Of a stretch of 64,000 bases of DNA, positions 13,462 through 35,743 are shown one piece after another; positions within the stretch are counted from its first letter, which is position 1, and every line of letters begins with the position of its first letter. The notes below the pieces were generated by a model. The model did no database searches and was not told the DNA's origin. It was given only the letters and a program-made list of their open reading frames with translations. Origin of the DNA: the human T2T-CHM13v2.0 reference genome, Homo sapiens; NCBI RefSeq assembly GCF_009914755.1, contig NC_060929.1. The stretch is one strand, 5' to 3'. Made by a program: the position numbers and the translations under genes.

Positions 13462-13629
13462 CTAGTTTGGAAGGATCATACTCAGCTGAAATTTGGATCA
13501 ATAATTTCTCCATATGGTGGAAGTTTGGAAATTCTTCAGGAATGACTGAAAAAACATTTATATTGCCCTCCAGATCCACAGACAGTTCTTTCAGGCACAG
13601 GAACTTATCCAGATTAGGAAAGATTTGGT
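13462..13629 (-). CDS. NAIP: NAIP exon, 168 bp: LRR (DQIFPNLDKFLCLKELSVDLEGNINVFSVIPEEFPNFHHMEKLLIQISAEYDPSKL)
   Basis: tttccag|AC CAA ATC...AAA CTA G|gtaagg; phases 1 to 1; the last NAIP exon present in the window. Confidence 0.94.
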
Positions 13630-13865
13630 CTGGAAAGCAGCACAGTTTCCCATTATTAATCTAAAGAGTTCTGAATGGACATTTTAAAACTGTCATTTTG
13701 ATTCATCCAGCTATTTTCACATGCAAACCTTCCACATACCATAAAACATTCTTTTTTTTTTTTTTAAAGAATACATATATGAAGATATTGCTGTTTGCAG
13801 CTTATGCACTGTATGGGAAGCCCTGTGCTACTCTTCAGACTCACAAAAAGAAATACAGCATCTCG

Positions 13866-16640
13866 GCTAGGCGCGGTGGCTCATGCCTGTAATCCCAGCA
13901 CTTTGGGAGGCTGAGGCGGGCGGATCACGAGGTCAGGAGTTTGAGACCAGTCTGGCCAACATAGTGAAACCCCGTCTCTACTAAAAATACAAAAAAAAAT
14001 TAGCTGGGTATGGTGGTGTGCATCTGTAATCCCAGCTACTCAGGAGGCTGAGGCAGGAGAATCACATAAACCTGGGAGACGGAGGTTGCAGTGAGCCAAG
14101 ATCGCGCCATTGCACTCCAGCCCAGGCTACAGTGTGAGACTCCGTCTCAAAAAAAAAAGAAGAGAAAAGAAATATAGCATCTCTTCAACAAACGGTTGGG
14201 GACAACTGGATTTGCACATGCGAAAGAATGAAGTTGGATTCCTATCCCTCACCATGTAAAAAAAATCAACTCAAAATGGATCAACGACCTAAATATAAAA
14301 GCTGAAATCACACAACTCTTAGAAAAAACATAGGAGTTAATCTTCATGACCTTGGATTTGGCAATGGATTCTTAGATAGGACACCAAAAGGACCAGCAAT
14401 AAAAGAAAAAAACAGATAAATTGGACTTCGTCAAAATTTAAAACTTTCGTGCACAAAGGACATTATAAATAAAGTAAAATGACAACCTATGGAATGGGAA
14501 AAATATTTTCAAACTGTGTATCTGATAACAGGTTGAAATCCAGAATATACAAATAACTCTTACAATGCAACAAAAACAACAACAATTTTTAAATGAGCAA
14601 ACAGATATTTTTTCAAAAAGTGAAAAGATACTTAACATCATTTTCATGATTTGCATTAGAGAAATGCAAATCAAAACCACAATGAGATACCACTTCACAA
14701 CTACTAGAATGGCTTTATGATAATCACAAAACAAAATGGGCTGGGTGAGGTGGCTCATACCTGTAATCCCAGCACTTTGGAAGGCCAAGGTGGGTGGATC
14801 ATTTGAGCCCAGGAGTTCAAGACCAGACTAGGGGCCAGGCACGGTGGCTCATGCCTGTAATCCCAGCACTTTGGGAGGCCGAGGTGGGTGGATCACCTGA
14901 GGTCAGGAGTTCAAGACCAGCCTGGCCAACATGGTGAAACCCCATCTCTACTAAAAATACAAAAATTAGCTGGGTGTGGTGGCGGGAGCTTGTAATCCCA
15001 GCTACTTGGGAGGCTGAGGCAAGAGAATGGCGTGAACCCAGGAGGCAGAGCTTGCAGTGAGCCGAGATTGCGCCACTGCACTCCAGCCTGGGGGACAGAG
15101 CGAGGCTCCATCTCAAAAAAAAAAAAGAAAGAAAAAGAAAAAAGACCAGACTAGGCAACATAGCAAGAATCTGTCTCTACAAAAAATAAAAAATTATCCA
15201 GGCACGGTGGTGCATGCTGGTAGTCTCAGCTACTCAGGAGGCTGAGGCAGGAGGATCACCTGAGCTCAAGAGGTTGAGGCTGCAGTGAGCCATGATTGCA
15301 CCACAGCACTCCAGCTTGGGCAATAGAGCAAGACACTGTCTGAAAAACAACAATGAAAACAAAAACAGGTCGGGCACTGTGGCTCATGCCTGTAATCCTA
15401 GCACTTCGGGAGGCCAAGGTGGCTGGACTGCCTGAGCTCAGGAGTTCGAGACCAGCTTGGGCAACATGGCGAAACCCCATCTCTACTAAAAATACAAAAG
15501 TTAGCCAGGTATGGTGGTGCACACCTGTAGTCCCAGCTACTCAGGAGGCTGAGACAGGAGAATTGCTTGAACCCGAGAGGTGGAGGTTGCAGTGAGCCAA
15601 GATCTCGCCACTGCACTCCAGCCTGGGTGACAGAATTAGACTCTGTCTCCACAAAAACAAAAATTAACAAGTGCTGAAGAGGATGTGGAGTAATTGGAAC
15701 CTTTGTACATGGATAGTGGGAATGTAAGATGGTGCAGCTACTGTGCAAGTTCCTCAAAAAGTTAAACATAGAACTACCATATGAATCAGCAATTCTGCTT
15801 CTAGGTATATACCCAAAATGATTAAAAGCAAGAACTTAAACCGATACTTATAATGCCAGTGTTCATTGCAGCATTATTTATGATAGCCAGAAGGTAGAAA
15901 CAACCCAAGTGTCTCTCAGCAGCAGAATGGATAAACAAAATGTACTATATACATACCATGGAATATTAGCTATAAAAAGGATGAAGTTCCTTTTCAAAGT
16001 TGATACATAATAATTGTACATATTTATGGAGTACATGTGAAGGAATGAAATTCCAATATAGGCTACAACATGATGTACCTTGAACAGTATGCAAAGTGAA
16101 ATAAGCCAGACAAGTGATAATGCTTATAAACAATATCTAGAAGAGGCAAATTCATAGAGACAGAAAATAGAAGAGAAGTTATCAGGGGCTGGTGGGAGGG
16201 AAGATTTTTTTTTTTTTTTTTTTTTTTTTTTTTTGAGACGGAGTCTCACTCGGTAGCCCAAGCTGGAGTGCAGTGGCATGATCTGGGCTCACTGCAACCT
16301 CTGCCTCCCAGGCTTAAGTGATTCTCATGCCTCAGCCTCCCGAATAGCTGGGACTACAGGCGCATGCCACCACGCCCAGCTAATTTTTTGTATTTTAGTA
16401 GAGACGTGGTTTCACCATGTTGCCCAGGGTGGTCTCAAACTCCTGAGCTCTGGCGATCCACCCTCTTCGGCCTCCCAAAGTGCTGGGATTACAGGCATGA
16501 GCCCCCGCGCCCGGCCCAATTTATTGTTTAATTGGGATGATGAAAAGGTTCTGGAGATGGATAGTGGTGATGGTTGTACAACATAGTGAATGCTTAATGC
16601 CACTGAGTTGTACACTTAAAATGATTAAAATGTAAGCTTT
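13866..16640 (+). mobile_element. Old L1M 3' region fragmented by Alus (13866-14170, 14739-15365 nested, 15368-15665, 16205-16516 minus)
   Basis: L1 ORF2/3'UTR motifs (aaaatcaactcaaaatggatc, gaaatgcaaatcaaaaccacaatgagatac, ggagatggatagtggtgatggttg) lie between the Alus. Confidence 0.8.
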
Positions 16641-17362
16641 GTTACATGTATTTTACCATAATAAAACAGTACTTGAAAAAAGATGAAAAATTTTCTAAAT
16701 TTGGTAAATGTCAACCCACACATTCCAAAAAAGTTCAGTGCACCTCAAGCAAGATACATACAAAGCAAAGCACACCTAGGCATATAACAGTCAAACTGCT
16801 TAAGACCAAAGCAATACTAGCAACAATTAGAAAATGAAAAAATATTTTTAATGACATTTACAATACTTTCAAAAGATATGAGTATCTAGGAATAAATTTA
16901 ATGAAAGATGGGTTAAGTCTACACTGAAAACTATCAAATAGTGCTTAGAGGAGTTAAGACACAAATAGATGAAGATATTATTTCCCATTAATTTATTTAT
17001 TTCCCAGGGACTACAGGCCTTTCTTCCTTTAGGCAGCTAGGGTGAAGGTAATTTCTAAGCATCATCTTACATATAGCTAATTCTTTTACTAATAACAGAT
17101 AATTCATGTCTTTATTAAGAACCTTCAATAATTTAATATAAATATTTTATTCATTTTGTCTGAGTTATTTGAAAACCATTCTATTATTCAAGGACTTTTC
17201 ACTAATTCATGCTACTGTCAAAAAAAATTAGTGAAGGTTTATTTTATATCTGTTCTATCAATGAGCATGCATGCTTTCATGGCCTCAGAAGTTTTCAACC
17301 ACTTAAAGTAAGAAAAAGAAATTATACATCAGAATAGTCATCCAAAATATATACAGGTATAC

Positions 17363-35185: not shown

Positions 35186-35297
35186 ACGCTGAAGCTAGTG
35201 GACATTGCTGAGTGTAGCTAAACGTAAGCCCAGGAGCATAAAGTCTATGTGGGAATTAAAGGTCAAGCAAGCAAGTGGGCACAACCTACTGACTCAC

Positions 35298-35417
35298 CTG
35301 TGTAGAAAAGACCTGCTTTGGCCAGTGCTGCAACTCCCACAGCTGATTCCCGGGGCCAGTCCTTAAAAGAGTCCAGCCGTAGTTCTTCGTAAGCAAAGAT
35401 GCTGTCATTGCAATAAG
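35298..35417 (-). CDS. NAIP: NAIP exon, 120 bp: BIR3 N-terminal half (AYCNDSIFAYEELRLDSFKDWPRESAVGVAALAKAGLFYTG)
   Basis: ttcaag|CT TAT TGC...ACA G|gtgagt; BIR motif RLxSFxxWP...LAxAGxFY; seen within ORF 35263..35493. Confidence 0.95.
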
Positions 35418-35691
35418 CTTGAATAAAAAGCACAAGGTGAGACCAGCAGGCTTTAGTCTTTTTTTTTTCTATATCTTTATTGCTGCTGCACAAATTAAAG
35501 AGACCAGTAGGCTTTGATATTGCAAGTATCAGCGTTCAAGTTGTCCCTTCACAGTTACAGATGGAATGATGTCTAGAGTTTGCTTCAAAATAAACGGGGC
35601 GGGGCGGGGGGGACGACAAAAAGAGATAGGGACAAAAAATCAAAAGAAGAAATAAACAAGCAAAGCCTTTGGAAAATGTTTGAGTTTTTAC

Positions 35692-35743
35692 CTGATGCCA
35701 TAGGTAATTCTCTCTGGACCCAGGAATTCACAAAATGTTCTCC
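35692..35743 (-). CDS. NAIP: NAIP exon, 52 bp (GEHFVNSWVQRELPMAS)
   Basis: ccctcag|GGA GAA...TCA G|gtaaaa; the peptide is visible within ORF 35585..35818. Confidence 0.93.

What the first reader, a model, noticed from the sequence alone, without database searches (positions are those of the whole stretch)
13462..35701. The 'pseudogene' keeps a fully open 884-aa BIR3-NACHT ORF lacking most of the LRR
Seen: from the ATG at 35701-35699 (MASAYCND...), exon lengths 10+120+100+82+58+2112+168 plus GT from OCLN give 2652 nt, or 884 codons, with no stop or frameshift. BIR3 zinc ligands (C,C,H,C) and Walker A GEAGSGKT are intact. Established: NAIP is the ligand sensor that nucleates the NLRC4 inflammasome, and in NLRC4-type NLRs the LRR contributes to autoinhibition and ligand binding. 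Inference: a BIR1/2-less, LRR-truncated product could be a decoy or a deregulated activator. Caveat: the open frame may only reflect how recent the duplication is.
Basis: partly seen in the sequence, partly recalled or inferred. Interest (0 to 1): 0.7.

Follow-up and report, generated by a model that had tools for sequence, protein, structure and literature searches.

The report
Young truncated NAIP copy, already described
A recent, partial duplicate of the human immune-sensor gene NAIP still has an unbroken 884-amino-acid reading frame, but this was described in 2009, the frame is likely open only because the copy is very young, and its known message stops early in a way that is predicted to send it for decay.

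Summary
Spliced to OCLNP1 exon 5, NAIPP4 gives an 884-codon frame (NAIP 265-1147 plus one Gly, 100.05 kDa) with BIR3 zinc ligands and Walker A intact. It is not new: Romanish 2009 predicted this ~100 kDa one-BIR+NBD product for the same copy ('NAIP1'), and Moses 2025 showed the NAIPP4-OCLNP1 fusion RNA, present in only some people. The open frame needs no selection: 3 differences in 2650 coding bases against NAIP, 43 in 23,327 intron bases (p=0.62); a neutral copy stays open with probability about 0.55-0.74. The stop is the first full codon in the OCLN exon, 571 nt and four intact junctions before the last exon: decay geometry. The product would lack the N-terminal/BIR1 ligand pocket and the C-terminal lasso but keep the NLRC4-facing NACHT surface. 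Most likely a neutral by-product (0.70). Left open: an unspliced 903-aa form that could end at the retained NAIP 3' UTR and escape decay. The proposed C-terminal peptide test fails with trypsin (two residues).

The parts
49081..49173 (-). Part of the published GUSBP-derived first exon; donor at 49080 is predicted; no ATG between primer and donor
   Evidence: Romanish 2009 GUSBP1-F primer matches 49152-49173 exactly, 1 match; sequence
38655..38898 (.). 5' boundary of the NAIP-derived block inside an Alu: identity to NAIP falls from ~99.8% to Alu-level, consistent with Alu-Alu crossover; upstream NAIP exons (N-terminal domain, BIR1, most of BIR2) absent
37374..37455 (-). Exon 4 (Romanish numbering), end of BIR2, now 5' leader; begins ATG-TGA, a start-stop element 124 nt before Met265
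35692..35743 (-). Exon 5; ATG 35701-35699 = NAIP Met265, context C at -3, G at +4
35298..35417 (-). Exon 6, BIR3 first part (NAIP 269-307)
32320..32419 (-). Exon 7, BIR3 with C315, C318, H335; its donor is one published NAIP-OCLN junction
24220..24240 (-). Site of the AluSg internal-promoter primer (1 mismatch)
   Evidence: (0 exact matches)
21382..21463 (-). Exon 8, C342 and linker
20334..20391 (-). Exon 9, linker; one synonymous difference from NAIP (codon 375)
19737..19756 (-). Site of the AluJb internal-promoter primer; transcripts from here would lack BIR3
17363..19474 (-). Exon 10: NACHT (NBD, HD1, WHD, HD2), insertion domain, first LRRs (NAIP 389-1091); differences from NAIP: Q901 synonymous, P919S
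13462..13629 (-). Exon 11, last retained LRR exon (to NAIP 1147)
12117..12119 (.). Junction of a 7,118-bp deletion removing NAIP exons 12-14 (residues 1148-1282); 3-bp microhomology, one end in an Alu
11683..11684 (.). Junction of a 777-bp deletion removing the acceptor and most coding sequence of the terminal NAIP exon; no microhomology
9763..11683 (-). Orphaned rest of the terminal exon: last 25 codons (1379-1403, the lasso tail), stop, 3' UTR with AATAAA sites, no canonical acceptor
2705..2708 (.). Junction between NAIP 3' flank and OCLN intron 4 (OCLN side ends within an Alu)
1756..1901 (-). OCLNP1 exon 5 (146 nt), identical to OCLN; supplies Gly884 and the TAA stop (1899-1897); exons 6-9 follow below the window with intact splice sites

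Best explanation
NAIPP4 is a very young partial copy of NAIP whose 884-codon frame is likely open only because too few mutations have accumulated, and whose fused message is predicted to be degraded, so it likely makes little lasting protein and has no selected function. Shown here: the copy lost its 5' exons, exons 12-14 and the acceptor of its terminal exon; the next intact acceptor downstream is OCLNP1 exon 5, where a stop comes at once, four junctions before the last exon. Shown in print: the fusion RNA exists and tracks copy number. Inferred: nonsense-mediated decay of most of it; weak initiation at Met265 behind a start-stop element; instability of a protein whose LRR is cut without its C-terminal cap; blindness to ligand.
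For: Coding 3 of 2650 against intron 43 of 23,327 differences from NAIP, Fisher p=0.62; neutral chance of an open frame 0.55-0.74. A sister copy at chr5:70.78 Mb is equally open in exon 10 and shares 2 of the window's exon-10 differences. Stop 141 nt before the next junction and 141+216+172+42 = 571 nt before the last; OCLNP1 exons 5-8 identical to OCLN. All 3 published donors present in this copy are out of frame with OCLN, as was a tumour NAIP-OCLN fusion. Present/absent among nine healthy lines and copy-number dependent in 191 people; NAIP mostly single copy in 101 haplotypes. Ligand pocket and lasso missing.
Against: The fusion RNA is abundant enough to be seen in brain RNA-seq, long reads and RT-PCR, and the same paper reports an out-of-frame fusion (KANSL1-ARL17A/B) that is highly expressed and ribosome-associated, so decay can be incomplete. 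Romanish 2009 lists a NAIP1-sized band on western blots of cell lines. 2 of 3 coding differences are synonymous (P=0.19), and three differences give almost no power to detect selection. If all intron indels, including homopolymer slips, were applied to the exons the neutral chance would be 0.08-0.29. The retained NAIP 3' UTR offers a decay-free 3' end.
Confidence: 0.7

Rival explanations
1. A stable ligand-blind decoy: the 265-1147 protein docks on inactive NLRC4 (or on NAIP) through its intact NACHT surface but cannot be clamped into the active state, and so dampens the inflammasome in carriers.
For: K569, R574, R590, L736, D949 kept; N-terminal, BIR and tail deletions of mouse NAIP5 lose ligand response; dominant-negative role suggested in 2009; NAIP1-sized band listed.
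Against: Decay geometry; LRR-side contacts R1380, D1367 lost; in simulation loss of only nine C-terminal residues raised fluctuation of the whole protein; no paralog-specific protein evidence found in my searches.
Confidence: 0.09
2. Decay is bypassed by another 3' end: transcripts that do not use the exon-11 donor read on to a 903-aa stop and end at the retained NAIP 3' UTR 3.7 kb downstream, giving the ~100 kDa protein; it would act as a BIR3-NACHT apoptosis or signalling modifier rather than a sensor.
For: Read-through frame 903 aa; the two deletions bring NAIP's 3' UTR and AATAAA sites (10146, 9982) to within 3.7 kb with no junction after the stop; a review says NAIP binds caspase-9 in an ATP- and K476-dependent way; BIR3 and K476 are intact.
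Against: The exon-11 donor is canonical and its use is documented; a 3.6-kb Alu-rich 3' UTR would itself favour decay (established knowledge, recalled); I saw no transcript with this end; isoform figures of Moses 2025 were not readable.
Confidence: 0.08
3. A deregulated activator: loss of the distal LRR leaves the NLRC4-opening surface free, so even small amounts nucleate NLRC4 without ligand.
For: A secondary statement that the LRR is suppressive in NAIPs (citing Kofoed and Vance 2011, which was not held); the activating surface is intact; one NAIP nucleates many NLRC4, so little protein could suffice.
Against: Structures indicate that ligand, BIR1, LRR and tail together hold the active conformation; the fusion is common in healthy people, which argues against a strong constitutive inflammatory driver (inference); decay geometry.
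Confidence: 0.05
4. The locus matters through DNA or RNA, not protein: as a gene-conversion and rearrangement partner of NAIP/OCLN, or as a source of mis-assigned reads and false 'cancer fusions'.
For: Substitution-free tracts of up to 3.9 kb against NAIP; varied NAIPP structures across haplotypes; NAIP-OCLN reported from a sarcoma; a published junction uses an exon this copy lacks.
Against: Parental NAIP and OCLN expression did not differ between copy-number groups; compatible with the best explanation rather than exclusive of it.
Confidence: 0.08

Closest known systems
NAIP1 of Romanish et al. 2009 (PMC2685007)
   Same: Same copy: 5'-deleted, exons 12-14 deleted, GUSBP-derived first exon into exon 4, predicted ~100 kDa protein with one BIR and the NBD; hg18 interval starts 126.9 kb from NAIP's, against 132.8 kb between the annotated 3' ends here; their primer maps in the window.
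   Different: In the text I read they do not give the 3' end, the OCLN splice, the 777-bp loss of the terminal acceptor or the decay geometry; their protein evidence is band size with one commercial antibody.
NAIPP4-OCLNP1 fusion transcript of Moses et al. 2025 (PMC12721320)
   Same: Same genes; listed donors are spaced 14,949 / 3,906 / 5,740 bp, matching exons 7, 10, 11 and 14 of NAIP (14,949 / 3,898 / exact exon-14 donor).
   Different: The main-text passages naming NAIP do not discuss its reading frame, domains or translation; one of the four donors (exon 14) is deleted in this assembly's copy.
Full-length human NAIP (PDB 8FVU; PMC10803261)
   Same: Residues 265-1147 identical to this genome's NAIP except P919S; ATP site and NLRC4-facing NACHT residues kept.
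   Different: Lacks N-terminal domain, BIR1, BIR2, 256 C-terminal residues, the LRR-LRR contacts and the lasso.
Functional human-specific truncated paralogs (SRGAP2C, ARHGAP11B, NOTCH2NL; properties recalled, only titles seen)
   Same: Incomplete duplication in a human-specific segmental duplication with an open frame.
   Different: This copy is presence/absence polymorphic, adds one new residue only, and its documented message has a premature-stop layout; no function shown.

Membership tests
Functional NAIP ligand sensor | N-terminal domain and BIR1 forming the ligand pocket with HD1 | tested here: not met
   Copy starts at exon 4; frame starts at Met265; pocket residues 16-109 per PMC10803261
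Functional NAIP ligand sensor | BIR3 with C,C,H,C zinc ligands | tested here: met
   C315, C318, H335, C342; Pfam BIR on both half-exons, one above and one below the curated cut-off
Functional NAIP ligand sensor | NACHT with ATP-binding residues K476, R582, R677 | tested here: met
Functional NAIP ligand sensor | NLRC4-nucleating surface | tested here: inconclusive
   NACHT/ID side kept (K569, R574, R590, L736, D949); LRR side R1380, D1367 lost; binding not tested
Functional NAIP ligand sensor | Complete LRR and C-terminal lasso | tested here: not met
   1148-1403 absent from the frame
Functional NAIP ligand sensor | Stable protein that activates NLRC4 on ligand | not testable with these tools
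   needs proteomics and reconstitution
Transcribed duplicated pseudogene with premature-stop fusion RNA | Intron-containing partial copy of a parent gene | tested here: met
   99.2-99.5% blocks against NAIP with two internal deletions and a lost 5' end
Transcribed duplicated pseudogene with premature-stop fusion RNA | Stop more than 50-55 nt upstream of the last exon junction (rule recalled) | tested here: met
   571 nt, four junctions; assumes OCLNP1 exons 6-9 are spliced on, as in NR_026578.1
Transcribed duplicated pseudogene with premature-stop fusion RNA | No purifying selection on the frame | tested here: inconclusive
   coding 3/2650 vs intron 43/23,327, p=0.62; too few differences for power
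Transcribed duplicated pseudogene with premature-stop fusion RNA | Transcription of this copy | not testable with these tools
   reported in PMC12721320
Functional human-specific truncated paralog | Near-fixed in the population | not testable with these tools
   one genome only; literature reports presence/absence variation
Functional human-specific truncated paralog | Message layout that escapes decay (stop in last exon) | tested here: not met
   for the documented OCLNP1 splice; the 903-aa read-through form would meet it but is unobserved

The most novel reading that the evidence does not exclude
Carriers of this human-specific, presence/absence-polymorphic copy make a stable ~100 kDa BIR3-NACHT NAIP (through leaky decay or the 903-aa form ending at the orphaned NAIP 3' UTR) that engages NLRC4 without ligand, setting an inherited inflammasome threshold next to SMN1.
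Probability: 0.07. Interest if true: 0.7.

Novelty: already known. Interest (0 to 1): 0.22.

Why it matters
If the protein were stable it would be a common, inherited, ligand-blind NAIP variant able to tune NLRC4 inflammation, in a locus typed for spinal muscular atrophy. As it most likely stands, its value is practical: the copy confounds NAIP read mapping and antibody bands, yields a germline 'NAIP-OCLN fusion' in tumour screens, and is a clear case in which an open frame reflects youth rather than function. The small additions here are the exact breakpoints, the decay layout, the alternative 903-aa end and a usable peptide test.

Tried and rejected
Joining exon 11 to the annotated OCLNP1 exon 1756-1779 (no AG before it; it is the tail of a 146-nt exon) or to the annotated NAIPP4 exon 9763-11690 (no AG before it): rejected as alignment boundaries. 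A cryptic acceptor at 11681 would put the 25-residue NAIP tail back in frame (908 aa), but it has 7 pyrimidines of 16 and 2 competing AGs, against 9-16 and 0-1 for the 9 real acceptors; 1 of 15 AGs in 11600-11760 gives that frame: judged unlikely, not excluded. In-frame NAIP-occludin chimera: none of the 3 testable donors is in frame. Selection on the frame: not detected. P919S as a copy-specific marker: shared with the 70.78-Mb copy. CpG-island promoter: no 1-kb bin of the window passed GC>55% or CpG o/e>0.55. Primary papers on NAIP LRR/BIR truncations (Kofoed 2011, Tenthorey 2014 and 2017) were not held; two searches for them gave only secondary mention. Earlier scan findings were not available. 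No structure was predicted: the parent is solved. The 5' part of the 70.78-Mb copy and the flanks of the 70.44-Mb copy were not read.
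Full report
Observation. On the minus strand the ATG at 35701-35699 and six further exons give 2650 nt with canonical splice sites and no stop. The annotated 24-nt OCLNP1 exon is the tail of a 146-nt exon starting at 1901. Spliced there, the frame gains Gly884 and stops at 1899-1897: 884 aa, 100,053 Da. Exon translations align to the solved human NAIP chain and fix the numbering as 265-1147; Pfam finds BIR, NACHT, winged-helix and NLRC4 helical domains. 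The zinc ligands and Walker A are intact.

Anatomy. Against this genome's NAIP the copy is three blocks of 99.3-99.5% identity. The 5' end lies in an Alu, where identity collapses from about 38,718; everything upstream of exon 4 is gone. A 7,118-bp deletion removes exons 12-14 and a 777-bp deletion removes the acceptor and most coding bases of the terminal exon, leaving 25 codons and the 3' UTR. About 7 kb further on, the block joins OCLN intron 4 at about 2706. OCLNP1 exons 5-9 follow with intact splice sites; exons 5-8 equal OCLN. So exon 11 has lost its normal partners and the next intact acceptor is OCLN's.

Is the open frame more than chance? In 12,500-38,600 (I left out the Alu crossover and a poly-T stretch at the ends) there are 3 substitutions in 2650 coding bases and 43 in 23,327 intron bases, Fisher p=0.62; 39 away from indels, p=0.80. 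Two of the three are synonymous (P=0.19), one is P919S, which the copy at 70.78 Mb shares. A simple model with my own assumed weights (transitions x4, CpG x10) makes 3.9% of substitutions disabling; with the 5 non-repeat indels of 30 clusters this gives 0.30-0.60 expected hits and a 0.55-0.74 chance of staying open. Using all 30 clusters, mostly homopolymer and microsatellite slips that exons lack, gives 0.08-0.29. The frame is thus what youth or gene conversion predicts; selection is neither shown nor excluded.

The message. Moses 2025 (PMC12721320; passages, section 20, and the readable part of a cut supplement; its preprint, passages) reports the NAIP-OCLN fusion as NAIPP4-OCLNP1, validated by RT-PCR and long reads, present/absent among nine lines, tied to copy number in 191 people, with no change in the parental genes, and not seen in 33 chimpanzee and macaque samples, a limit the authors flag. 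Its four junction coordinates are spaced like the donors of exons 7, 10, 11 and 14. The 3 donors present here are all out of frame with OCLN; a sarcoma study also found its NAIP-OCLN out of frame (PMC5113808, passages). For the 884-aa form the stop is 141 nt before the next junction and 571 nt before the last, well beyond the 50-55-nt rule (recalled). Against this, the paper notes an out-of-frame fusion that is abundant and on ribosomes; whether NAIP-OCLN is in its Ribo-seq table I could not see. At the 5' end, the published GUSBP-derived first exon maps to 49152-49173, and exon 4 opens with ATG-TGA ahead of a mediocre Met265 context.

The protein, if made. In the human structure (PMC10803261, passages) the ligand's C-terminus sits in a pocket of the N-terminal domain, BIR1 and HD1, and the last eight residues thread the insertion domain as a lasso; both the pocket's N-terminal half and the lasso are absent here. 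In mouse NAIP5, loss of the first 40 residues, the BIRs or the tail abolishes or cuts the response (PMC5752844 and PMC10699770, passages); BIR1 and the pre-BIR region are needed for NAIP2 ligand binding, while its LRR is dispensable for binding (PMC5938239, passages). So it would be ligand-blind. The NACHT residues facing NLRC4 are kept, the two LRR salt bridges lost. One paper states that the LRR is suppressive in NAIPs (PMC6281599, passages), citing work I could not open, so an activator is not excluded; a review notes ATP-dependent caspase-9 binding (PMC7583971, passages; PMC12575685, passages, added only the lasso summary).

What is known. Romanish 2009 (PMC2685007; parts 1-5 of 7 of the text and Table S1; figures and two .doc supplements unseen) describes 'NAIP1', 5'-deleted and lacking exons 12-14, driven from a GUSBP intron, predicted at ~100 kDa with one BIR and the NBD, lists it among western bands in cell lines, says the ~85 kDa Alu-driven form was not detected, and proposes dominant-negative action. 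Coordinates and deletion match this copy. The evidence is band size only. Haplotype papers show NAIP mostly single-copy in 101 haplotypes and several truncated forms (PMC12350169 and PMC11927269, passages). Searches for NAIP+OCLN+pseudogene, NAIPP4, NAIP-OCLN and NAIPP with Ribo-seq/proteomics terms (listings, with the papers named above opened) showed no copy-specific protein or functional study; the library lacks most subscription papers.

Verdict. Real, already described, most likely neutral (0.70). Rivals: decoy 0.09, decay-escaping 903-aa form 0.08, DNA/RNA-level role 0.08, ligand-free activator 0.05. Interest 0.22; the boldest reading, an inherited NLRC4 modifier, has probability 0.07 and would deserve 0.7.

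Noticed in passing
window 12117-12119; parent G000:C5:71,430,892: One of the four published NAIP-OCLN junctions lands exactly on the NAIP exon-14 donor, which this copy has deleted; in this genome that exon occurs at 2 places only (NAIP and the 70.79-Mb copy), neither upstream of an OCLN exon 5. Some haplotypes may carry an OCLNP1-adjacent copy without the 7.1-kb deletion, or the junction is a mapping or template-switch artefact.
   Followed up: partly
window 37455-37450: Exon 4 begins ATG-TGA; with the predicted upstream exon it has A at -3, a better context than Met265 (C at -3), so it may lower or redirect initiation; Met348 and Met389 are in-frame alternatives, Met389 with G at -3 and G at +4.
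   Followed up: partly
window 1756-1901 and L033/L034: OCLNP1 exons 5-8 are identical to OCLN and exon 9 has one coding difference (Asn in the copy at window -17019); an in-frame Met in exon 5 opens the whole occludin C-terminal tail, so an internally started or reinitiated fragment is conceivable.
   Followed up: no
L002, L039 (G000:C5:70.775-70.793 Mb) and L006 (70.44 Mb): The 70.78-Mb copy keeps exons 10-15 without either deletion but did not match the exon 4-6 query; the 70.44-Mb copy matches exons 4-6 but no exon 10 was found for it.
   Followed up: partly
window 17363-19474: All three exon-10 copies in this genome encode Met535 where the solved chain has Val, so this site does not mark the pseudogene.
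   Followed up: yes
window 27706-34139: Only one substitution against NAIP over 6.4 kb, against 4-6 per 2 kb nearby: possible gene-conversion tract.
   Followed up: no
window 38930-39900: The block upstream of the 5' breakpoint has two further near-identical copies in the locus (71.32 and 70.90 Mb) and a 97% copy at chr5:22.08 Mb, in keeping with a CDH12-region origin (CDH12P4 annotation).
   Followed up: no
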